NCBI GenBank assembly: GCA_023269615.1
Contig: JAHFSY010000006.1
Span: forward strand, 11,033-75,032
Origin: Verrucomicrobiota bacterium
GTDB lineage: Bacteria; Verrucomicrobiota; Verrucomicrobiia; JABWAM01
Length of the DNA: 64,000 nucleotides
Reading direction: 5' to 3'
Part shown: piece after piece, positions 46,485 through 54,916 of the stretch
How the letters are laid out: each line of letters opens with the position of its first letter
How positions within the stretch are numbered: the first letter of the stretch is position 1
Position numbers and translations under genes: made by a program
Notes under the pieces: model-generated
Databases searched by the model: none
What the model was told of the DNA's origin: nothing
Seen by the model: only the letters and a program-made list of their open reading frames with translations

Positions 46485-46581
46485 GGAGAGTGAAGGGTGC
46501 CTGGTGGCCCTCGCGGTCTTCAAAACCGCCGTCGGCCCGTTTTACGGGGCGAGGTGGGTTCGATTCCCACCCTCTCCGCCA
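46485..46581 (+). tRNA. selC: tRNA-Sec (anticodon UCA)
   Basis: 97 nt. GGAGAG.../...CTCTCC-G-CCA acceptor. Anticodon arm GCGGT-CTTCAAA-ACCGC with anticodon TCA. Long variable arm (GGCCCGTTTTACGGGGC). T-arm GGTGGG-TTCGATT-CCCACC. Sits directly upstream of selD. Confidence 0.9.
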
Positions 46582-46657
46582 TTTTCACCACGGACTTGCG
46601 ATCTTCGAATTCGCAGGGTAATCCAAAATCAGACATTGCCAGAAGGAGGTGATGAAC

Positions 46658-47710
46658 ATGACCCGTGAGCGAATCTTGAAACTGACATCGCTTTCATCCT
46701 GTGCTGGATGAGCTTCAAAACTCAGCCAAAAGGCTCTGGCGCAAGTTTTGCGCCAGCTACCCCGAACGCATGACCGGAACCTGCTGGTGGGCATCGCCAC
46801 CGGCGACGACGCCGGCGTGTATCGCATTGACCGTGACCGGGCGCTGGTCCAGACGGTGGATTTTTTCACGCCCATCGTGGACGACGCATTCTCCTATGGA
46901 CAGATCGCCGCGGCCAACGCCCTCTCGGATGTTTACGCCATGGGTGGCCGTCCGCTCACGGCCATGAATCTCATGGGCGTTCCAACCGACCGTGTTCCTC
47001 CGCGGATCATCAACCAGATTCTGCGCGGCGGCGCGGCCAAGCTCAAGGAGGCGCGCTGTGTCCTTGTCGGCGGCCACACCATCCGCAATCCGGAACCCAT
47101 CTATGGCCTTTCGGTCACCGGCATGGTCTCGCCACGCCGCATGCTGACGAATGCCGCCGCGCGCGCAGGCGACCTGCTGGTGCTCACCAAGCCGCTCGGA
47201 ACCGGGGTGGTCACGACGGGAATCAAACGGGGCATCACATCACGGCCTCTGAAACAAAAGGCCGTTGCCCTCATGTGCCATCTCAATCTGGTCGGGACGG
47301 AGGTTGCCGAGCAGGGGCTTGTCCGCGCGGCAAGCGATGTGACGGGTTTTGGACTGCTTGGCCAGCTTGGAACCATGTGCCGCGCAAGCGGTGTGGGCGC
47401 GGAAGTGTTTGCGGGTTGTGTGCCCGTGATCAGTGATGAAGTGCTTGCCCTCATCTCACGAGAATGCATTCCCGGCGGAACCCGCGACAATCTTGCGCAC
47501 GCCGGCAAATTCGTGAAATGGAACCAAGGCGACGTCCGCTTGAAAATCCTGCTTGCCGACGCTCAAACCAGCGGCGGCCTTCTCCTCTGTGTACCGCCGC
47601 GCCATCTGCCCGCCGTTTTAAAGGTCCTGAAGCGGCATCGTGCGCCATGCGCGGCTGTGATGGGTCGGATCGTGCGCTCGTCGAAACCGATCATTGGGAT
47701 CAGACCATGA
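46658..47710 (+). CDS. selD: selenide, water dikinase SelD, Sec-containing (in-frame TGA at 46709..46711)
   Basis: AGGAGG lies 8 nt before ATG 46658. Translation MTRERILKLTSLSSCAG-U-ASKLSQKAL; U18 aligns with catalytic Cys17 of E. coli SelD (GAGCGCK). Downstream GDDAGVYRI and DFFTPIVDD. The track only shows the part from 46748. Confidence 0.9.
46736..46756 (+). promoter_or_regulatory. SECIS-like hairpin of selD
   Basis: CTGGCGCAA-GTT-TTGCGCCAG, a perfect 9-bp stem, starts 25 nt after the TGA. Confidence 0.6.
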
Positions 47711-49062
47711 AGCCAGCATCCTTGCGCTCCATCCCGGCGGTCGAAAAAGTGCTCCAGGCCCTCGGCACCCACGACCTGTCGCGCCCGGTCGTCGTTGCGG
47801 TTGTCCGACGCGAATTGGCGGCGCTGCGATCATCAAGGAAAGTTCCTGGCCTGGACACCGTCCTCGCCCGCATCCGCCATTCGCTCGAATTCCTGCGTCG
47901 CGCCCGAATCCAGCCTGTTGTGAACGGCACGGGCATTCTCGTCCACACCAACCTGGGCCGTTCGCCGCTCGCGCCGGCGGCGGTCGAAACGCTCACCGCC
48001 ATTGGCTCCAGCTACAACAACGTTGAATACGACCTGTCGGACGGTGAACGCGGCAAGCGCGCTTCCTATCTCGAGCACAATCTCGCCATCCTTTGCAGGG
48101 CCGAGGCTGCCACCGTGGTGAACAACAACGCCGCCGCACTCGTGTTGATCCTGCGGCACCTTTGCGCCGCACCGAAGTGCGACGTGGTGATCTCCCGTGG
48201 CGAACTGGTTCAAATTGGAGGCGAATTTCGAATTCCTGACATTCTTGAGGCAAGCGGCGCGCGTTTGCGGGAGGTGGGCACGACCAACAAGACCTTGATT
48301 TGCGACTATGAAAAAGCCATCCGACGGGAGACCGCGCTGGTCCTGAAGGTCCACCGCAGCAATTTTTTCATGGAAGGTTTTGTCGAGTCACCACCCACGG
48401 AACAAATCGCGGCGCTGGCGCGCAGAAAACGTGTTCCCCTGGTCGAGGATCTTGGCAGCGGGGCGGTGACGGAAACAGAAAAACTGGCTGGACTCGAACA
48501 TGAGCCGACTCCCGCCGAGGTATTGCGGCACGGGGCGGACCTGGTCTGTTTCAGCGGCGACAAACTCCTGGGCGGGCCGCAAGCGGGCATCATTGCCGGA
48601 AATGCGCGACGGGTCGCCGCTCTGAAGCGTGAGCCATTCTTTCGAGCGTTGCGCTGTGACAAGCTGATCCTCTCAGCCCTGCAAACGACCGTGGATCTCC
48701 ACCTCAAGGGTGACTCGCTGGACATCCCGGTGCTGTCCATGTCTGGCATTTCAATGGATGAACTGCGCACCCGCGCGGAACACATCGTGATTGCGCTTGC
48801 GGGTCTTCCCTTGAAGGCCGGCATCGGCGCTGGCCGGGCGCAAATGGGAGGTGGCACGCTCCCGCGGTCGGTGATCCCATCCGTCACCGTCGATCTCACC
48901 CCGGAAAAAGTCGCTCTCCCGGAATTCGCAAAACGCCTGCGTGAAAGCGTTCCGCCCGTCATCGGTTATATTTCGGGCGGACGTTTCAAACTCGACCTGC
49001 GCACGATTTTCCCACGACAGGACCAGGACCTCGTTCGCGCGATTCGACTGCTGAGCTTGTAG
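47707..49062 (+). CDS. selA: L-seryl-tRNA(Sec) selenium transferase
   Basis: ATGA overlap with selD. FSGDKLLGGPQAGIIAG contains the PLP-binding Lys motif. N-terminal MKPASLRSIPAVEKVL is typical. Confidence 0.9.
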   Translation: MKPASLRSIPAVEKVLQALGTHDLSRPVVVAVVRRELAALRSSRKVPGLDTVLARIRHSLEFLRRARIQPVVNGTGILVHTNLGRSPLAPAAVETLTAIGSSYNNVEYDLSDGERGKRASYLEHNLAILCRAEAATVVNNNAAALVLILRHLCAAPKCDVVISRGELVQIGGEFRIPDILEASGARLREVGTTNKTLICDYEKAIRRETALVLKVHRSNFFMEGFVESPPTEQIAALARRKRVPLVEDLGSGAVTETEKLAGLEHEPTPAEVLRHGADLVCFSGDKLLGGPQAGIIAGNARRVAALKREPFFRALRCDKLILSALQTTVDLHLKGDSLDIPVLSMSGISMDELRTRAEHIVIALAGLPLKAGIGAGRAQMGGGTLPRSVIPSVTVDLTPEKVALPEFAKRLRESVPPVIGYISGGRFKLDLRTIFPRQDQDLVRAIRLLSL

Positions 49063-49150
49063 GGGCAAGCGGCATGCCTGCTGTTCCGCTGTAGCCGGGG
49101 TCGTTGACCTCGTGGGGAGTCGCATCTCCGAGTTATCGGCGATCCACGAA

Positions 49151-49174
49151 CTTTTATCGCATATGCGCGAAAAG
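49151..49174. repeat. degenerate copy of the CGACCTTTT..GCATATGC..AAAAGGTCG palindrome (family copy 2)
   Basis: cttttatcgcatatgcgcgaaaag, preceded by atcggcgat as in copy 1. Confidence 0.6.
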
Positions 49175-49222
49175 CTGGTCGGGGCGGCTGCTGGCGCCCT
49201 TGGCATGAACCACCGGAGCCCA

Positions 49223-49256
49223 ACGACCTTTTTGCTCATATGCGCAAAAAGGTCGT
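49223..49256. repeat. 34-nt palindrome ACGACCTTTTTGCTCAT|ATGCGCAAAAAGGTCGT (family copy 3)
   Basis: 17-nt arms with one mismatch. Confidence 0.8.
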
Positions 49257-49482
49257 CGAACCATCGTGGCGAAGGATGATGCCGTGGCGCCAACGACAAC
49301 TCGGAGATGCGCGCCAGTGGGAGGGAGCAGGGCTTCATGCTGGCCCCGGTGCCCCTGCAATTCCAAGAAGTTCCACGGAAGATCGTGTGCGTTACTTTTC
49401 CATCTCACACCCAGAACGAAGGGTGGGTGGAATTGACGCTGTGTTGTGAATGCGGTAGGCTGTTGGGCAAGGAGACAATCCC

Positions 49483-49719
49483 ATGAGCTTGGAAATCACC
49501 ATCGAATATTGCAGCTCTTGAAGCTACGAACCGAAAGCCGTCGGTCTGGCGGAAAAACTTCTGGCGCTCAAGAGGCAGATCGGCTCCGTCAAGTTGATCC
49601 CTTCGGGCGGCGGCGTCTTTGAAATCTGCGTCAATGGAAAAAAGATTTATTCCAAAAAGGAAGCAGGACGGTTTCCCGATTTCGACGCCATTGTCAAAGA
49701 GATCAAGGCCCAGTTGTGA
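49483..49719 (+). CDS. SelW/Rdx-family selenoprotein (in-frame TGA at 49519..49521)
   Basis: Absent from the track. AAGGAGA lies 7 nt before the ATG. Translation MSLEITIEYCSS-U-SYEPKAVGLAEKLLALKRQIGSVKLIPSGGGVFEICVNGKKIYSKKEAGRFPDFDAIVKEIKAQL. CxxU motif plus the GGxFE...GRFP pattern of Rdx proteins. Confidence 0.8.
49538..49552 (+). promoter_or_regulatory. SECIS-like hairpin of the SelW-like gene
   Basis: CCGTC-GGTCT-GGCGG (5 bp including one G-U, GGUCU loop) starts 16 nt after the TGA. Weaker than the others. Confidence 0.4.
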
Positions 49720-49845
49720 CTTTGCCGTTCGGACGGGAGCGCGGGCGTCCCGCCCGCGTTTCAAAACCGATGGCGGGCAGGATGCCCGCCCTCCCGTCCA
49801 CGATGATTGCTTTGGCCCCTTCCTGATCGGTGTCGTTCAAGCTTT

Positions 49846-51876
49846 ATGACCGCCCGCCATTTCATCCTGGCCACTGCAGGCCACGTGGATCACGGCAAGA
49901 GCGCCCTGGTGAAAGCCCTGACCGGCACCGATCCCGATCGGTTGCCCGAGGAGAAGGCGCGGGGCATCACCATTGACCTCGGTTTTGCACATCTGGAATT
50001 GCAAGCGGCAGCGATGAGCAATCAGCGATCAGCAGTCAGCCATCAGCCATCAGCCGACGGTCCACATCCTTCATCCTTCATCCCTCATCCCTCATTCCTC
50101 TCTCTGGGCATCGTGGATGTTCCCGGGCACGAGGATTTTGTCAAAAACATGGTGGCCGGTGTCGGCTCAATCGATCTCGCGTTGCTGGTGGTGGCGGCGG
50201 ATGACGGCTGGATGCCTCAAACCGAGGAACACCTGCAAATTCTCATTCATCTGGGTGTCACGCGAGCCGTGGTCGCGCTCACCAAGATGGACCTGGCGCA
50301 AGGCGACGAAGCGCCGATCGTCGATGCCATCCGCGAAAAATTACGCGGCACGACCATTGCCGATGCCCCGATCATCGGAACCTCCGTGCTCAACGGTCGC
50401 GGCCTTGACGAGCTGAAAGCAGCGCTGGCCCGCGTGCTGGAAGGCGCTCCGTCTCAACCCGACATCGGCAAGCCGCGCCTGCCCGTGGATCGTGTGTTCA
50501 CCTTGCGCGGGGTTGGCACCGTGGTCACCGGCACGCTCACGGGCGGGATCCTCCGTCGTGGCCAGGCGGTGGTGGTCCAGCCTTCCGGCAAAACGGCCCA
50601 CGTCCGCGGCATCCAGAGCCACAACCGTGACGTCGAGTTCATTGGCCCAGGCACGCGCACCGCGTTGAGTCTCCCGGATCTTGCCGTTTCCGTGAAGGGT
50701 CATTCCGCGGTTGGCGACGAAGGTATCCACCGGGGCGATGTCATCACAGGGGCCGATTTCGGTGGGCCAAACACCACGCTGGGAGTGCTTCTGAAAACAT
50801 CGCCCCGTCCGCTGGAGGGCAGGGCGGGGGCGGCGCGCCCGCTCAAGGATGGAACGCTTGTTCACATCCATCATGGAAGCGGCCGTGTTTCGGCGCGCAT
50901 TCATCTGCTGGGCCAAAAGGAGCTAAACGCCGGTCAAGACAGTGTCGCCTTGCTGCATCTCGACACACCCATCTTCGCTTTCGCGGGCGACCGGTTCATC
51001 GTGCGCGACTGGCCGGAGCAACGCACGCTGGCCGGAGGCGTGGTGCTTGACCCCGATGCGGATCAAAAGCATGTCCGTGGCGAAATGCTCCACAAATTTC
51101 TGAAACGGAGGGCGGAAACGCCGGACCAGGCATCTGCTTTTATCATCTCCCAACTCGCGCGTGATGGCACGCTCCAGCGGTCCGCCCTGCTCGTCAAGTC
51201 GAGGTTCAGCGCCGTGGAAATTTCCGATGTCCTCGCGCAACTGTCGAAGGAAGGCAAGGCTGTCTGCTTCGGCGCATGGGCAGCGGATGCCTCATGGTGG
51301 CAAAAGCAACGGCGGATTGCGGTTGAGGCGATCGAAGAAGAGCACCGCGTTCATCCGGAGCGGACGGGATTGTCCCTGAACGCGCTGCGGCAGAAACTGG
51401 GGAGCGACGCTCATTCGACGGATGTGTTTGACGCGATGGTTGACGATCTTTGCAACAAAGACTTCATCCGCGTTGGCGCGGCGATCCGTCGGGTGACTCA
51501 TCGGCCCGCACTCCCGCCGCACCTTCAGGCGGCAGGAGCCAGGGTGCGCTCGGCTCTGGCGGCAAAACCATTTGACCCGCCTTCACGGAAGGAACTGGCA
51601 CCAGACGCCGTCACGCAGCAGGCGCTGCGGTTCCTGCTCGATACCGGTGAAGCAGCCGAGATCGGCGGTGAAGCTGTCCTGCTGGCGGAAAATTTTGCCC
51701 GTGCGACGGCCATCATCAAAAAATTCCTCGTGGATCATCGGGCGGCGACCGTCAGCGAGCTGCGACAGGCGGTTGGAACCAGCCGCAGAATTCTTGTGCC
51801 GTTGCTTGAGCGTCTCGACCGTGAAGGCGTCACGCTGCGCCAGGGCGACCGGCGCGTGCTGCGGCCGGGCCGGTGA
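49846..51876 (+). CDS. selB: selenocysteine-specific elongation factor SelB
   Basis: [19 protein letters not shown] (G1), DVPGHEDF (G3), LTKMD (G4), and C-terminal winged-helix [37 protein letters not shown]. Carries an insertion of about 30 aa encoded by heptamer repeats. Confidence 0.9.
50017..50100. repeat. two tandem heptamer blocks inside selB (ATCAGCN units at 50017..50055; CATCCTT/CATCCCT units at 50064..50100)
   Basis: gagcaatcagcgatcagcagtcagccatcagccatcagcc ... acatccttcatccttcatccctcatccctcattcctc encodes [28 protein letters not shown]. Confidence 0.85.
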
Positions 51877-52068: not shown

Positions 52069-53292
52069 TTGGCTTTTGTTCCTCCACGCTTGTGCTATGG
52101 AAGGATCGTGAAACATGGACGATACGCCGTGTGGGTGACGGGGTCCTTTCTCCTTCTGGCCTTCGTGTTTCCACGACATGTCGTGGCAGGTCCTGCCGAG
52201 GAGTATCAGAGCTTGGTGAAGGAATACGATGCCGCCATGCAGGAGTTTTACAAGGTTTATGGCGAGGCCAAGACAGAAGAAGCAAAAGCGAAGGCATATG
52301 AAAAGTGTCCACGGAACGAGAGCTATACCGGTCGTTTTCTTGCGCTGGCCGAAAAACATCCCAAGGAGCCGCTGGCCCTCGACGCGCTCCAATGGGTCAT
52401 CCTTCACACGCAGCATGGCCCAGAGTTCGAGAAGGCGTTAAAAATCATTGCCGACGTCCACATCCAAAATGAAAAAATCGGGCCGATCTGCGAACTGTTG
52501 ACGAATCTCCCGATTCCCATGAGCGAACAACTGCTCCGCGGAATTTTGGAGAAGAACACTTACCACGAAGCCAAAGGCTATGCGGCCTTGAGCCTGGGCC
52601 AATTTCTCAAAAATGAATCCGCCGTGGCTCATTACTTGAAGGAATTGAATCCTGCCTCCCTGGCTGGCCATGAGCGGTATTATGGGAAGGATGGCGTGGA
52701 AAAGATGCTGCACAGCGATCCAAAAAAACTAACCGAGGAAGCCGAGAAATCTTTTGAGCAGGTGATCGAAAAATACGGCGACATCAAGTTCGGTGAACGC
52801 ACTCTTGCTGATTTTGCCAAAGCGGAATTGTTTGAAATCCGCAACCTGACGATTGGCAAGGTGGCGCCGGAAATCGAAGGGGTGGATGTTGATGGCAAGG
52901 CTTTCAAGCTGAGCGACTACCGAGGGAAGGTTGTGGTGCTCGATTTCTGGGGGGATTGGTGAGGCCCCTGCCGGGGCATGTACCCACACGAGCGGTCGCT
53001 CGTGGCACGACTGAAGGACAAACCCTTCGTGATCCTTGGGATCAATAGCGATCCGAAGGAGAATCTCAAGAAGGCGATCGAGCGGGAAAAAATGACCTGG
53101 CGCTCATGGTGGGATGGAGGCAATCCGAACGGTCCGATTGCAAGCAAATGGAACGTCAGTGGCTGGCCGACGGTTTATGTCCTCGATCACAAGGGAGTCA
53201 TCCGCTACAAGGAGGCCGAGCTTGATGAAGCCGTGGACACGCTCCTCAAGGAGCTTGATCAGGAAGCCAAGGTGGACCAAGGGAAGAAATGA
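52069..53292 (+). CDS. exported TlpA/thioredoxin-fold selenoprotein (in-frame TGA at 52960..52962; W-U-G-P-C)
   Basis: Track ORFs 52069..52962 and 52978..53292 share one frame. The junction reads VVVLDFWGDW-U-GPCRGMYPHERSLVARLKDKPFVILGINSD, the TlpA/ResA motif FWAxWCxPC with Sec in place of the first Cys. Signal/anchor segment and a helical N-domain of about 250 aa. Start is TTG 52069 or GTG 52108. Confidence 0.8.
52987..53004 (+). promoter_or_regulatory. SECIS-like hairpin of the TlpA-like gene
   Basis: CACGAGC-GGTC-GCTCGTG, a perfect 7-bp stem with a GGUC loop, starts 25 nt after the TGA. Confidence 0.6.
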
Positions 53293-53300
53293 ATTCTCTT

Positions 53301-54290
53301 TCAGGGAGAAGGTGTTGATCCTTGGGCGACGTTTGCGGCCTTGCGAAGATAGAGCCAGACCCAGCCGTGATATTCCGTGTTTGCACCGGATGAACTGGCA
53401 AAATCGCCGACGAGGAGATCCATGCGACCGTCGCCATTCCAATCGGTCACGCAGATTTTTGCGCGGATGCTCCCTTCGGGAAGTTTTAGAAGAATCACCG
53501 GGGCATCCAGCTTGGGTGCCCCCTTCTCGCCGATGTTGCGAAACCACGACACGCTTCCATCTCCCGCTCCGACAAGAAGGTCTGGTTTCCCGTCTCCGTC
53601 CCAGTCCGTCACACAGGGGCCCGCATCGCCGGAAACCATGAGTTTTCCACTCGGCAGCAGGGGCTGGGCCTGGCCAAAGGCGGGTTTTTCGCGGGTTCCT
53701 TCGTTCGGAATCAAAAACACCTTTCCCTGGATGTTGCCAACCAGAAGATCAAGATCGCCGTCGCCATCCCAATCCACGGAAAAAGGCACGGCAGCCGTCT
53801 GCTTGATCGGACTGCCCTTGGAATCCTTCAAGATTTCGCCCGCGGCGAATTGCCCGTCTGCTTGTTGGCGGAAAAGGTACAGCTCGCCTGGCGAATAGGA
53901 ACCCGTCAAGACATCAGGCTTCCCGTCGTTATCGAAGTCCACAAACTGTGGACTGAAGCCGACGCATCACCCAGTTGGAACTTTGGCGTCCGCGCCCCCG
54001 GCCTTGAGGTAGCTGAAGCTGCCAAAGGAAGGTTTCTCATTGGTGCCTTCGTTCCGGTAGATGCGCAGCCTGCCGCGAAATTCACCCGCGAGCAGGTCGA
54101 ATTTTCCGTCTCCATCAAAATCGGCAACAAAAGGCGCTGCGTGCCCGATCTCGCTGCCGAGATCGATCGGCTTTCCACCCGCCTCGATTTTCACCGGAGC
54201 GGAAAACTCATCGCCAGCTCCCGCAAAGAGCATGCCGGCCGTGAAGGCCAGGCCGAAGGTGCTCAAGAATTGTTTGCTTCCCGGTTTCAT
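53301..54290 (-). CDS. exported FG-GAP/VCBS-repeat protein with in-frame TGA (53967..53969): candidate selenoprotein
   Basis: Track ORFs 53967..54425(-) and 53301..53942(-) are one frame. Read-through gives ...GADAKVPTG-U-CVGFSPQFVDFDNDGKPDVL..., inside one of five D[FW]D(G/N)DG repeat units. Signal peptide MKPGSKQFLSTFGLAFTAGMLFAGA from ATG 54290. Confidence 0.6.
53937..53953 (-). promoter_or_regulatory. SECIS-like hairpin of the FG-GAP gene
   Basis: On the minus strand, GUCCACA-GUU-UGUGGAC is a perfect 7-bp stem starting 14 nt after the TGA. The GUU triloop closed by A-U matches the selD hairpin. Confidence 0.5.
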
Positions 54291-54460
54291 GAATGCCGCT
54301 CTCGGTTCAGTGACGGGTAAACACTCGCAGAAGACCCTCGATTTGTCAACCTGACGGCTGGAATAAACTGTTACGCTCTGCGTATATGTTTGACTTTGAA
54401 CTTTCACCATTATAACGATTCTCAATCAGGTTCGTCAGATAATTCATTTCCACTCAGACC

Positions 54461-54916
54461 ATGGACCTCCTCAAAATAAGAATGTTTCTGGCATTGGTCA
54501 TCTGGTGTGGCGTGGTAGGGATGCCGGCCAGCCTTCGTGGAAGGTGAGGACCGTCTACGGGGAGCGGGTCCCGCTCTCAACCAGCAAAGAGTCCTTCCAC
54601 AGCGGGCAGTCTTTCCGCCAAATTTGCCGCGGCCAAACAGCGCGATTTCCAGGAGAAGGCTGAGCAAGAATCGCGCGCTGCGAAACAAAACACCGATGCG
54701 AATCCAAACGCGGCCGCCGGAGAACAGGCCGCCCACCCGAATCGAGCGACGATTGTGAAAGCCTGCAACCTTGCGATGGAACACGGAAGCGTCGGGGTCA
54801 ACGTTGGAATCACTGTGAAAGTCCTTGAGGTCGTTGGCGATCAGGTTTTGGTTCAAGTAGAATCATTCAAAGGGAAAATTCCCATTTCCTGCACCGACTT
54901 GAAAAAGCAGGGTTAA
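54461..54916 (+). CDS. small secreted protein with in-frame TGA (54545..54547): candidate selenoprotein or pseudogene
   Basis: Not in the track. Translation MDLLKIRMFLALVIWCGVVGMPASLRGR-U-GPSTGSGSRSQPAKSPSTAGSLSAKFAAAKQRDFQEKAEQESRAAKQNTDANPNAAAGEQAAHPNRATIVKACNLAMEHGSVGVNVGITVKVLEVVGDQVLVQVESFKGKIPISCTDLKKQG. Signal peptide and mature part are in frame. Composition is more protein-like than the antisense track ORF 54422..54856. No clear SD. Confidence 0.35.
54562..54576 (+). promoter_or_regulatory. SECIS-like hairpin after the 54545 TGA
   Basis: GAGCGG-GTC-CCGCTC, a perfect 6-bp stem, starts 15 nt after the TGA. Confidence 0.35.

What the first reader, a model, noticed from the sequence alone, without database searches (positions are those of the whole stretch)
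54461..54916. Unannotated small secreted ORF with a UGA right after the signal peptide and a SECIS-like hairpin
On the plus strand, a 28-codon signal-peptide-like segment (MDLLKIRMFLALVIWCGVVGMPASLRGR) is in frame, across a single TGA, with a 122-codon protein-like segment. That segment has a Ser/Gly/Pro linker, an Ala/Lys/Glu/Gln-rich helix and a small beta-rich C-terminal domain with two Cys. It has no start codon of its own until 53 codons before its end. A 6-bp hairpin GAGCGG-GUC-CCGCUC starts 15 nt after the TGA, the same spacing as in the FG-GAP gene. The only track ORF here (54422..54856, minus) is Arg-rich and looks like an antisense artefact. An AT-rich promoter-like stretch (TTGACT 54390..54395, TATAAC 54411..54416) faces the plus-strand ORF. 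Weaknesses: there is no Shine-Dalgarno sequence, there is no CxxU-type redox motif, and a recent nonsense mutation is an equally simple explanation.
Basis: inference. Interest (0 to 1): 0.65.

Follow-up and report, generated by a model that had tools for sequence, protein, structure and literature searches.

The report
Unannotated small exported selenoprotein gene
A small gene that annotation pipelines missed most likely encodes an exported protein in which a conserved in-frame UGA is read as selenocysteine; it seems to be a new, very rare selenoprotein family that uses the ordinary bacterial recoding mechanism.

Summary
The plus-strand ORF 54461..54916 has ATG, 28 signal-peptide-like codons, TGA at 54545-54547, then 122 open codons. 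An 8-bp hairpin with loop GUC starts 12 nt after the TGA.

The window carries tRNA-Sec, selD, selA and selB. It also holds three other genes with in-frame TGAs and GU-loop hairpins: selD itself, a TlpA-like WUGPC protein and an FG-GAP protein.

The only relative found in about 15 billion proteins is on a cave-metagenome contig and is 44% identical. It has the same layout: ATG, 28 codons, TGA at codon 29 after "LRG", same frame downstream. Its 23-nt hairpin stretch is nucleotide-identical, although 56% of conserved-residue codons elsewhere differ synonymously.

A motif conserved between the two proteins lies where the window has no possible start codon, so the TGA must be read through. Strain SNPs fall mostly on plus-frame third positions. 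The antisense ORF is not conserved.

A nonsense mutation and a minus-strand gene are effectively excluded.

Function is unknown. The protein has no Pfam or NCBIfam match and no Cys-containing homologue. Its C-terminal two-Cys domain is perhaps SH3-like. There is no RNA or protein evidence and no covariation, because only two lineages exist.

This is a new member of a known kind, of moderate interest.

The parts
54461..54916 (+). Complete coding sequence of the proposed selenoprotein: 151 codons including Sec29, then TAA 54914-54916.
   Evidence: This is the only frame open in both the window and L002 apart from the shared TGA. Homologue P0001/L002 found; codon alignment.
54461..54529 (+). Predicted Sec-type signal peptide, M1-A23. 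n-region MDLLKIR, 14-residue hydrophobic core, putative cleavage MPA|SL (VTA|NL in L002).
   Evidence: Hydropathy and alignment. Inspection only; no signal-peptide predictor was available.
54545..54547 (+). In-frame TGA (codon 29), proposed selenocysteine codon. It follows the conserved L-R-G-x.
   Evidence: Same codon position in L002 (3204-3206). Unchanged in independent assemblies and strain contigs.
54548..54559 (+). 12-nt spacer between the UGA and the hairpin.
   Evidence: The FG-GAP gene has the same spacer length. One strain SNP (54557 A>C) falls here and not in the stem.
54560..54578 (+). SECIS-like hairpin GGGAGCGG-GUC-CCGCUCUC (8 bp, one G-U pair). It encodes part of G-S-G-S-R-S-Q.
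   Evidence: It lies in a 23-nt run identical in L002. It meets all four bSECIS model constraints quoted in PMC13188914.
54605..54637 (+). Conserved motif GSLSAKFAAAK (GSLSSKFSALK in L002). In the window it lies upstream of any possible start codon.
   Evidence: Synonymous changes AAA/AAG and TTT/TTC show constraint at the protein level.
54752..54913 (+). C-terminal beta-rich domain (I98-G151), 53% identical to L002, with two invariant Cys: C102 (54764-66) and C144 (54890-92).
   Evidence: AF2 predicts four strands with pLDDT 67.5. Foldseek gives only non-significant SH3-like matches.
46485..46581 (+). tRNA-Sec (anticodon UCA), the decoding tRNA.
   Evidence: Rfam RF01852, 62.9 bits; ARAGORN.
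46652..47710 (+). selD (selenophosphate synthetase), itself Sec-containing (TGA 46709-46711, SCAG-U-ASK). A 9-bp hairpin with loop GUU lies 24 nt after the TGA.
47707..49062 (+). selA (Sec synthase); the start is approximate.
   Evidence: Pfam SelA, E = 6.8e-117.
49846..51876 (+). selB, the Sec-specific elongation factor, with the C-terminal winged-helix domain that binds SECIS.
   Evidence: Pfam GTP_EFTU, Beta-barrel_SelB and SelB-wing_3; 676-aa gene call.

Best explanation
Window 54461..54916 (+) is a real protein-coding gene that annotation missed. Its UGA at codon 29 is decoded as selenocysteine.

Mechanism (inferred from the well-studied bacterial pathway):
- The ribosome reaches the UGA with the 12-nt spacer inside its mRNA channel.
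- The 8-bp hairpin with its G-U apical loop then sits at the channel entrance.
- The hairpin is bound by the winged-helix C-terminus of the SelB encoded 3 kb upstream.
- SelB delivers Sec-tRNA(Sec), whose gene lies 8 kb upstream, so translation continues to TAA 54914.

The product is a 151-residue precursor with four parts:
- a 23-residue Sec-type signal peptide;
- Sec about six residues from the mature N-terminus;
- a disordered linker of about 70 residues, part of which (GSGSRSQ) is dictated by the hairpin;
- a beta-barrel domain of about 55 residues with two invariant Cys.

What is shown: the gene is real, the plus frame is the coding frame, the UGA and hairpin are conserved, and the machinery is present.

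What is inferred: Sec insertion itself and export.

What is speculative (about 0.25): an extracytoplasmic selenol on a flexible tether that acts in redox exchange or in metal or chalcogen binding. One of the two Cys, or the neighbouring Sec-containing TlpA-like reductase, might act as its partner.
For: (1) Sec machinery is in the window: tRNA-Sec, selD, selA and selB. TGA is otherwise the main stop codon (27 of 36 long ORFs), so this is not a reassigned code.

(2) Three other genes in the window calibrate the signal:
- selD: UGA, 24 nt, 9 bp, loop GUU.
- TlpA-like WUGPC gene: UGA, about 25 nt, 7 bp, loop GGUC.
- FG-GAP gene: UGA, 12 nt, 8 bp, loop GUU.

(3) The hairpin meets the published bSECIS constraints (PMC13188914). 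Those are a 3-9 nt loop, a 4-16 bp stem, G in the first two loop positions followed by G or U, 16-37 nt from UGA to the loop, and MFE of -7.5 kcal/mol or lower. Here the values are 3 nt, 8 bp, GU, 20 nt and -13.2 kcal/mol.

(4) The only homologue is P0001 (E = 1.2e-15), on a cave-metagenome contig (L002/L003). It has ATG, 28 codons, TGA and the same frame downstream, with the TGA at the same aligned codon after the conserved LRG.

(5) All seven hairpin codons are nucleotide-identical between the two lineages. Elsewhere 32 of 57 conserved-residue codons differ synonymously, which gives p of about 0.003. This is the longest identical run in the alignment, 23 nt.

(6) The conserved motif GSLSxKFxAxK lies between the TGA and the first possible start (GTG 54755) in the window. 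All indels between the two genes are multiples of three.

(7) Of seven strain SNPs, five are synonymous third-position changes in the plus frame. Four of those five fall on first positions of the minus ORF; the fifth (54865) lies outside it. None touches the TGA or the stem.

(8) The codon-aligned antisense frame is interrupted at different places in L002. Plus frame 0 is the only frame open in both lineages.

(9) A gene caller did call the plus-strand C-terminus on a short contig that cuts the gene (L001).
Against: - There are only two independent lineages, and their hairpins are identical. There is therefore no covariation, and no Cys-containing homologue to align with the UGA.
- The hairpin's free energy is no better than shuffled sequence (z = -0.03). 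In L002 the isolated RNA prefers an alternative fold that uses the spacer.
- No Rfam SECIS family matches.
- Codon-usage score is low and equal on both strands (0.013 against -0.01; real genes have a median of 0.21).
- There is no Shine-Dalgarno sequence, although about half of the neighbouring genes, including selA and selB, also lack one.
- Metatranscriptomes from the same study give no coverage.
- There is no CxxU- or UxxC-type motif, so nothing points to a catalytic role.
- The L002 contig is too short to show whether that organism has Sec machinery.
Confidence: 0.77

Rival explanations
1. There are two separate cistrons. The UGA is a genuine stop that ends a 28-residue hydrophobic micropeptide or leader ORF. 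The downstream protein is initiated independently, by re-initiation or a non-canonical start. The conserved hairpin serves coupling, pausing or mRNA stability rather than Sec insertion.
For: In L002 an ATG lies 21 codons after the TGA, and a gene caller used it (P0001). Hairpin stability is not above shuffles. There is no direct evidence of Sec insertion.
Against: - The window has no ATG, GTG or TTG for 69 codons after the TGA, yet the protein-level motif GSLSxKFxAxK lies in that stretch.
- The L002 ATG sits inside an 8-codon insertion that the window lacks.
- Both lineages keep the two parts in the same frame, with the UGA at the identical codon.
- The hairpin has the geometry and GU loop of the window's three other Sec genes.
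- The hairpin is not followed by a U-run, so it is not a terminator.
Confidence: 0.1
2. The UGA is read through without selenocysteine. Either a near-cognate tRNA inserts Trp, Cys or Arg, stimulated by the downstream hairpin, or read-through is rare and most product is the truncated peptide.
For: Downstream structures can stimulate stop-codon read-through (general knowledge). None of the evidence collected here distinguishes which amino acid is inserted.
Against: The complete Sec machinery and three other UGA-plus-GU-loop-hairpin genes sit in the same 8 kb. The hairpin meets the bSECIS model, including the G-U loop positions. Stable conservation of UGA rather than a sense codon across about 56% protein divergence argues for a specific need for this codon.
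Confidence: 0.06
3. It is a pseudogene: a recent nonsense mutation in an ordinary small secreted-protein gene.
For: This is the simplest reading of a single sequence. Codon-usage score is weak.
Against: - The TGA is at the identical codon in a homologue only 44% identical.
- It is retained in independent assemblies and a strain about 95-99% identical.
- Sequence downstream of the TGA remains under purifying selection. SNPs are synonymous-biased, indels are in frame and there are no further stops.
Confidence: 0.02
4. The real gene is the minus-strand ORF 54422..54856 (144 aa, Arg-rich), and the plus-strand ORF is its shadow.
For: It is the longest uninterrupted ORF in the interval. Its codon score equals that of the plus frame.
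Against: - It has no Pfam match.
- The same antisense frame in L002 carries stops at different places, so the ORF is not conserved in extent.
- Four of the five synonymous plus-frame SNPs are first-position changes in this ORF.
- Gene callers did not call it on the long contigs.
- The homologue found by HMMER is in the plus frame.
Confidence: 0.01

Closest known systems
Canonical bacterial selenoprotein genes with an intragenic SECIS (E. coli fdhF type; bSECIS consensus model of Zhang and Gladyshev as summarised in PMC13188914)
   Same: An in-frame UGA is followed within the coding sequence by a stem-loop whose small apical loop starts with G-U. The loop lies 20 nt after the UGA, within the model's 16-37 nt range. 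The 12-nt spacer is close to the 11 nt of the minimal fdhF element (from my own knowledge). tRNA-Sec, selA, selB and selD are present in cis.
   Different: The protein has no known domain, no CxxU or UxxC motif and no Cys-containing homologues. The Sec lies in a disordered N-terminal region rather than in a folded active site. No Rfam SECIS family matches.
The window's own exported selenoproteins: the TlpA/AhpC-TSA-like WUGPC protein (52108..53292) and the FG-GAP protein (54290..53301)
   Same: All have hydrophobic N-terminal leaders. Each has one in-frame UGA with a GU-loop hairpin, and the FG-GAP hairpin has identical geometry (12-nt spacer, 8 bp, 3-nt loop). All lie next to the sel genes.
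   Different: Those two have recognisable folds, and their Sec sits beside a Cys (U-GP-C; U-C), typical of redox or metal sites. This protein has a lone Sec with no nearby Cys.
Small 'hypothetical' selenoprotein families from metagenomes and Haft's NCBIfam selenoprotein models (for example GOS_B NF041374, DW/OS_HP3 NF041197 'GxU', selenobacteriocin TIGR04081 'SGUG')
   Same: These are short proteins of unknown function, recognised only because gene calls are truncated at a conserved TGA. This protein has a local G-x-U context.
   Different: No NCBIfam model (release 20.0) matches either family member, even at E <= 1. Those families have tens of members and often Cys forms; this one has two lineages and none.
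SH3-like small beta-barrels (bacterial SH3b, HIV integrase C-terminal domain, HypC)
   Same: The C-terminal 55 residues are predicted as four or five strands. The top Foldseek PDB list is dominated by SH3-type barrels. The sequence pattern V.A..L.....G......G..V.VL...GD.VLV......G.IP...L resembles SH3b (my reading).
   Different: No match is significant (E about 1, TM 0.3-0.4). Model confidence is low (pLDDT 67.5). There is no Pfam SH3 hit even at E <= 10.

Membership tests
Bacterial selenoprotein gene (UGA recoded by SelB and SECIS) | The organism has the Sec-decoding trait: tRNA-Sec, SelA, SelB, SelD. | tested here: met
   tRNA-Sec 46485-46581. SelA E = 6.8e-117, and SelB with its SelB-specific domains. 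selD read. All lie within 8 kb upstream.
Bacterial selenoprotein gene (UGA recoded by SelB and SECIS) | A single in-frame UGA with coding sequence in the same frame on both sides. | tested here: met
   Constraint at the protein level is seen both upstream (A-x-L-R-G with synonymous CGT/CGG and GGA/GGC) and downstream (GSLSxKFxAxK and the C-terminal domain). SNPs follow the plus frame.
Bacterial selenoprotein gene (UGA recoded by SelB and SECIS) | bSECIS model: 3-9 nt apical loop, 4-16 bp stem, G in loop position 1 or 2 (usually G[G|U]), 16-37 nt from UGA to the loop, MFE <= -7.5 kcal/mol (PMC13188914). | tested here: met
   Loop GUC (3 nt), 8-bp stem, loop 20 nt after the UGA, hairpin -13.2 kcal/mol. 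Caveats: the energy is not better than shuffles, and the model is permissive.
Bacterial selenoprotein gene (UGA recoded by SelB and SECIS) | The UGA is conserved in orthologues and/or aligns with Cys in homologues. | tested here: met
   The UGA is at the identical codon in the one other lineage. No Cys homologue exists in 1.84 billion representatives. With only two lineages this falls short of curation standards such as Haft's (at least ten examples).
Bacterial selenoprotein gene (UGA recoded by SelB and SECIS) | RNA structure supported by conservation beyond the coding constraint, or by covariation. | tested here: inconclusive
   Synonymous sites in the seven hairpin codons are fully conserved (p about 0.003). 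No covariation is possible because the two hairpins are identical.
Bacterial selenoprotein gene (UGA recoded by SelB and SECIS) | Demonstrated selenium incorporation (75Se labelling or mass spectrometry). | not testable with these tools
   Metatranscriptomes from the same study gave no coverage. No proteomic data were available.
Thioredoxin-fold or redox-motif selenoproteins (CxxU, UxxC, UxxS/T) | Sec lies in a CxxU- or UxxC-type motif within a thioredoxin-like fold. | tested here: not met
   The local sequence is LRGR-U-GPST (LRGG-U-PPPS in L002). There is no Cys within 70 residues downstream and no Pfam or NCBIfam thioredoxin-like hit.
Described selenoprotein families that have NCBIfam models | A score against a curated family HMM. 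| tested here: not met
   Neither member has a relevant NCBIfam hit at E <= 1, and there is no Pfam hit.
Sec-dependent (signal peptidase I) secretory signal peptide | A positively charged n-region, a 7-15 residue hydrophobic core, and small residues at -1 and -3 of the cleavage site. | tested here: inconclusive
   n-regions MDLLKIR and MKTSVKR. Both lineages have a 14-residue hydrophobic core (hydropathy peak 2.7-2.9). The sites are VTA|N in L002, which is canonical, and MPA|S in the window, where Met at -3 is unusual. No predictor was available.
Bacterial lipoprotein with Sec in place of the lipobox Cys | Lipobox [LVI][ASTVI][GAS]C at the end of the signal peptide. | tested here: not met
   The residues before the Sec are L-R-G-R (window) and L-R-G-G (L002). 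Arg at -1 or -3 is incompatible with a lipobox.
SH3-like beta-barrel domain | A significant sequence or structure match to SH3-type folds. | tested here: inconclusive
   The best Foldseek PDB hits have E about 1 and TM 0.3-0.4 and are mostly SH3-type barrels. AF2 pLDDT is 52-67. There is no Pfam or PDB sequence hit.

The most novel reading that the evidence does not exclude
This is an obligately Sec-containing, exported protein family with no Cys counterpart. The selenol sits a few residues from the mature N-terminus, on a 70-90-residue disordered tether anchored by a small two-Cys beta-barrel. That architecture is unlike the usual Cys/Sec-interchangeable oxidoreductase active site. It could represent a new functional class: a tethered extracytoplasmic selenol for metal or chalcogen capture, selenium delivery, or a redox relay. 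It may work together with the adjacent Sec-TlpA-like and Sec-FG-GAP proteins of a subsurface bacterium's 'selenium island'.
Probability: 0.25. Interest if true: 0.65.

Novelty: new member of a known kind. Interest (0 to 1): 0.5.

Why it matters
- It adds an apparently undescribed selenoprotein family. Standard pipelines cannot see it. The gene was left uncalled on the long source contig, and only a C-terminal fragment of the homologue is in the protein databases.
- It shows that a Sec codon can sit directly behind a signal peptide in a disordered segment, with the SECIS dictating the linker sequence.
- A family with no Cys form and no redox motif is a useful test case for what selenocysteine does outside classical active sites.
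- The locus is a compact natural set of four SECIS elements for one SelB: tRNA-Sec, selD(Sec), selA, selB, then three exported selenoprotein genes. That set is useful for defining what this lineage's SelB recognises.
- The FG-GAP selenoprotein next door may also be undescribed.
- The limits are real: there are two lineages, no expression data and an unknown function.

Tried and rejected
**Homologue searches**
- Word-index protein search with the read-through protein found nothing. With P0001 it found only P0001 itself. With the C-terminal domain alignment it found nothing.
- The exhaustive HMMER search gave one true hit, P0001, and one low-complexity repeat protein, P0002, which I rejected as compositional.
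- The metagenome-contig scan returned only the L002 contig.
- The genome contigs protein-pattern scan found nothing.
- The genome-contig scan with a degenerate TGA-N12-hairpin pattern gave four hits in high-GC MAGs. All are chance: none has an ORF or the family's features.
- The plasmid tblastn and the viral-contig scan found nothing.
- There is no paralogue in the window.

**Family and structure searches**
- Pfam, NCBIfam and PDB sequence searches found nothing relevant.
- Rfam at E <= 10 on the region gave only noise and no SECIS family.
- AF2 models have low confidence, and the Foldseek hits are not significant.

**Tests that did not discriminate**
- Codon-usage and GC3 scoring does not separate the plus and minus frames.
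- Metatranscriptomes from the same sample and study show no coverage of this organism beyond spurious 30-nt matches.
That scan instead finds a minus-strand site facing the FG-GAP gene.

**Readings considered and rejected**
- Terminator: there is no U-run after the hairpin.
- Lipobox: Arg at -1 in the window and at -3 in both lineages.
- Double-glycine leader: GG is not conserved.
- Reassigned genetic code: TGA is the main stop codon.

**Not resolved**
Runs holding the sequence are groundwater and freshwater metagenomes; the L002 lineage is from a cave metagenome.
Full report
**1. Checking the observation**

The plus strand reads ATG (54461), then 28 codons MDLLKIRMFLALVIWCGVVGMPASLRGR, then TGA (54545-54547), then 122 open codons ending at TAA 54914-54916. 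The first in-frame ATG/GTG/TTG after the TGA is GTG 54755, 53 codons from the end. The 144-codon minus-strand ORF 54422..54856 exists.

It is GGGAGCGG-GUC-CCGCUCUC, 8 bp with one G-U pair (54560-54578). It starts 12 nt after the TGA, which puts the apical loop 20 nt downstream.

The hexamers TTGACT and TATAAC exist, but they are 15 nt apart and were not returned by the consensus scan. That scan instead found a minus-strand site facing the FG-GAP gene.

Public gene calls on the 354-kb source contig leave this interval empty. A short contig that cuts the gene did get a plus-strand call ending at 54916.

**2. Genomic context**

The window carries tRNA-Sec at 46485-46581 (Rfam 62.9 bits; ARAGORN anticodon TCA). 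It is followed by selD, selA (Pfam E = 6.8e-117) and selB, which has the SelB beta-barrel and winged-helix domains.

Three further genes have a single in-frame TGA followed by a GU-loop hairpin:
- selD: SCAG-U-ASK; TGA 46709; 9 bp; loop GUU; 24 nt downstream.
- A TlpA/AhpC-TSA-like protein: FWGDW-U-GPC; TGA 52960; 7 bp; loop GGUC.
- The divergently transcribed FG-GAP protein: KVPTG-U-CVGF; TGA 53969-53967; 8 bp; loop GUU; 12-nt spacer. This is the same geometry as the finding.

TGA is also the usual stop codon (27 of 36 long ORFs), so the code is standard with Sec recoding.

Only about nine hairpins in 128 kb of sequence (both strands) have at least 8 bp, at most one G-U pair, and a 3-5 nt loop carrying GU. 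Three of them lie 12-24 nt after in-frame TGAs. The chance that a given TGA has one at bSECIS distance is about 2e-3. About 50 TGAs bridge ORF-like segments.

**3. Comparative evidence**

The word-index protein search found nothing. An exhaustive HMMER scan of 1.84 billion representatives found one true relative, P0001 (120 aa, 48% identity, E = 1.2e-15).

Its contigs are L002 (JGI) and L003 (ENA), which are identical in this region. They come from a cave metagenome. The window lineage occurs in groundwater and freshwater metagenomes.

P0001's called ATG is not the true start. Upstream, in the same frame, lie an ATG, 28 codons (MKTSVKRAMALSIILPFLVGVTANLRGG) and a TGA at codon 29. The same hairpin follows after a 12-nt spacer.

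The read-through proteins are 44% identical. They align end to end, and all indels are multiples of three.

Three details matter:
- **Hairpin conservation.** The seven hairpin codons GGG AGC GGG TCC CGC TCT CAA are nucleotide-identical. Elsewhere 32 of 57 codons for identical residues differ synonymously (p about 0.003). The 23-nt identical run is the longest in the 260-nt alignment.
- **Constraint upstream of the TGA.** The residues before the TGA (A-x-L-R-G) are conserved with synonymous changes (CGT/CGG, GGA/GGC). The leader is therefore translated in this frame.
- **No possible start codon.** The motif GSLSxKFxAxK, conserved with synonymous AAA/AAG and TTT/TTC changes, lies in the window between the TGA and the first possible start codon. 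It can only be made by reading through the TGA.

The L002 ATG used by the gene caller sits in an 8-codon insertion that the window lacks.

**4. Strand and population evidence**

Codon-usage scoring could not separate the plus frame (0.013) from the codon-aligned antisense frame (-0.01). Both are below typical genes (median 0.21).

Three other lines do separate them:
- Plus frame 0 is the only frame open in both lineages. The antisense frame is broken at different places in L002.
- Contigs from related strains show seven SNPs. Five are synonymous third-position changes in the plus frame, and four of those five are first-position changes in the minus ORF (54865 lies beyond its start). Two are non-synonymous, in the spacer and the linker (binomial p about 0.045). 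None touches the TGA or the stem.
- The TGA is present in several independent assemblies, so it is not an assembly error.

**5. SECIS assessment and caveats**

A 2026 review (PMC13188914) quotes the bSECIS model as follows: a 3-9 nt loop, a 4-16 bp stem, G in the first two loop positions (usually followed by G or U), 16-37 nt from UGA to the loop, and MFE of -7.5 kcal/mol or lower. All four constraints are met here: GUC, 8 bp, 20 nt, -13.2 kcal/mol.

The caveats are these:
- The model is permissive.
- The energy is not better than shuffles (z = -0.03). The FG-GAP and selD hairpins score z = -3.4 and -2.7.
- In L002 the isolated 46-nt RNA prefers an alternative hairpin that uses the spacer. With the UGA in the A site the spacer would lie inside the ribosome, leaving the conserved hairpin free. 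That argument is inference.
- No Rfam SECIS family matches.
- With two identical hairpins there is no covariation.
- There is no Shine-Dalgarno sequence. However, selA, selB and the FG-GAP gene also lack one, while selD and the transglutaminase-like gene have one.
- Metatranscriptomes from the same study gave no coverage.

**6. The protein**

Both leaders have a basic n-region and a 14-residue hydrophobic core, too short for a typical membrane helix. Both have an A-x-A-like site at the same aligned position: VTA|N in L002 and MPA|S in the window. Cleavage there would leave Sec as about the sixth residue of the mature protein.

The next 70-90 residues are low-complexity, vary in length and are predicted to be disordered.

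The last 55 residues are 53% identical, with two invariant Cys (C102, C144). They are predicted as four strands (pLDDT 67.5). Foldseek hits are not significant but are mostly SH3-type barrels.

There are no Pfam, NCBIfam or PDB sequence matches. There is no CxxU or UxxC motif, no lipobox, and no Cys-containing homologue anywhere.

The neighbours are not shared between the two loci. The window has the FG-GAP and transglutaminase-like genes; L002 has Hsp70-like and TraB/GumN-like genes.

Function is therefore open. My best guess, at low confidence, is an extracytoplasmic tethered selenol for redox exchange or metal or chalcogen binding.

**7. Comparison with known families, and verdict**

Mechanistically this is an ordinary bacterial selenoprotein gene. 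As a protein family it matches none of the curated selenoprotein models. It is not recognisable among the families tabulated in the 2026 review or mentioned in the main text of the BSepDB paper. I could compare by HMM and by name only.

The nonsense-mutation and minus-strand alternatives are effectively excluded. A two-cistron reading and non-Sec read-through remain possible, but each needs extra assumptions.

This is a new, very rare member of a known kind. Interest is moderate. It is raised somewhat by the unusual Sec position, the lack of any Cys form, and the compact 'selenium island' that also holds an FG-GAP selenoprotein which may itself be undescribed.

Noticed in passing
window 53301..54290 (-), TGA at 53967-53969: The FG-GAP repeat gene has one in-frame TGA (KVPTG-U-CVGFSPQF). 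An 8-bp hairpin AGUCCACA-GUU-UGUGGACU follows 12 nt later (z = -3.4). Public gene calls split the gene into two pieces. 'FG-GAP' is not mentioned in the 2026 prokaryotic selenoproteome review or in the main text of the BSepDB paper, so this may be an undescribed selenoprotein family with a U-C dyad.
   Followed up: partly
window 52108..53292 (+), TGA at 52960-52962: A TlpA/AhpC-TSA-like thioredoxin-fold gene with a hydrophobic N-terminus has the classic FWGDW-U-GPC Sec motif. Its hairpin is CACGAGC-GGUC-GCUCGUG. Gene calls split it into 284- and 104-aa pieces.
   Followed up: partly
window 46485..51876 (+): A compact Sec-machinery cluster: tRNA-Sec, selD (itself Sec-containing: TGA 46709, SCAG-U-ASK, a 9-bp hairpin with loop GUU 24 nt after the TGA), selA and selB. 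It is directly followed by three genes for exported selenoproteins. Together they form a 'selenium island' with four SECIS elements for one SelB.
   Followed up: partly
window 54447-54455; L002 3097-3105: The 9-mer TTTCCACTC is shared just upstream of the start codon in both lineages (5 nt and 14 nt before the ATG). Neither lineage has a Shine-Dalgarno sequence. It might be a translation-initiation or regulatory element, or it might be chance.
   Followed up: no
window 54931 onward (strain contig in run X4): A contig about 94% identical, from another groundwater sample, follows the gene to 15 nt past its stop codon and then departs completely from the window sequence. This suggests a different downstream neighbour in a related strain.
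   Followed up: no
window 54409-54438 (-): A promoter-like site, CTGACG-18 nt-TATAAT (10 of 12 matches), sits on the minus strand facing the FG-GAP gene. The intergenic region probably holds divergent promoters.
   Followed up: no
L002 3204-3249: In the homologue, the isolated RNA's minimum-energy fold (-17.2 kcal/mol) is an alternative hairpin that pairs the C-rich 12-nt spacer with the 5' arm of the conserved SECIS stem. It could compete with, or regulate, SECIS formation when no ribosome occupies the spacer.
   Followed up: no
window 54461-54916 (search behaviour): The word-index protein search missed the 48%-identical homologue, which the exhaustive HMMER scan then found. Only a C-terminal fragment of the homologue, starting at an internal ATG, is in the protein databases. 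Families like this one are systematically under-represented there.
   Followed up: yes
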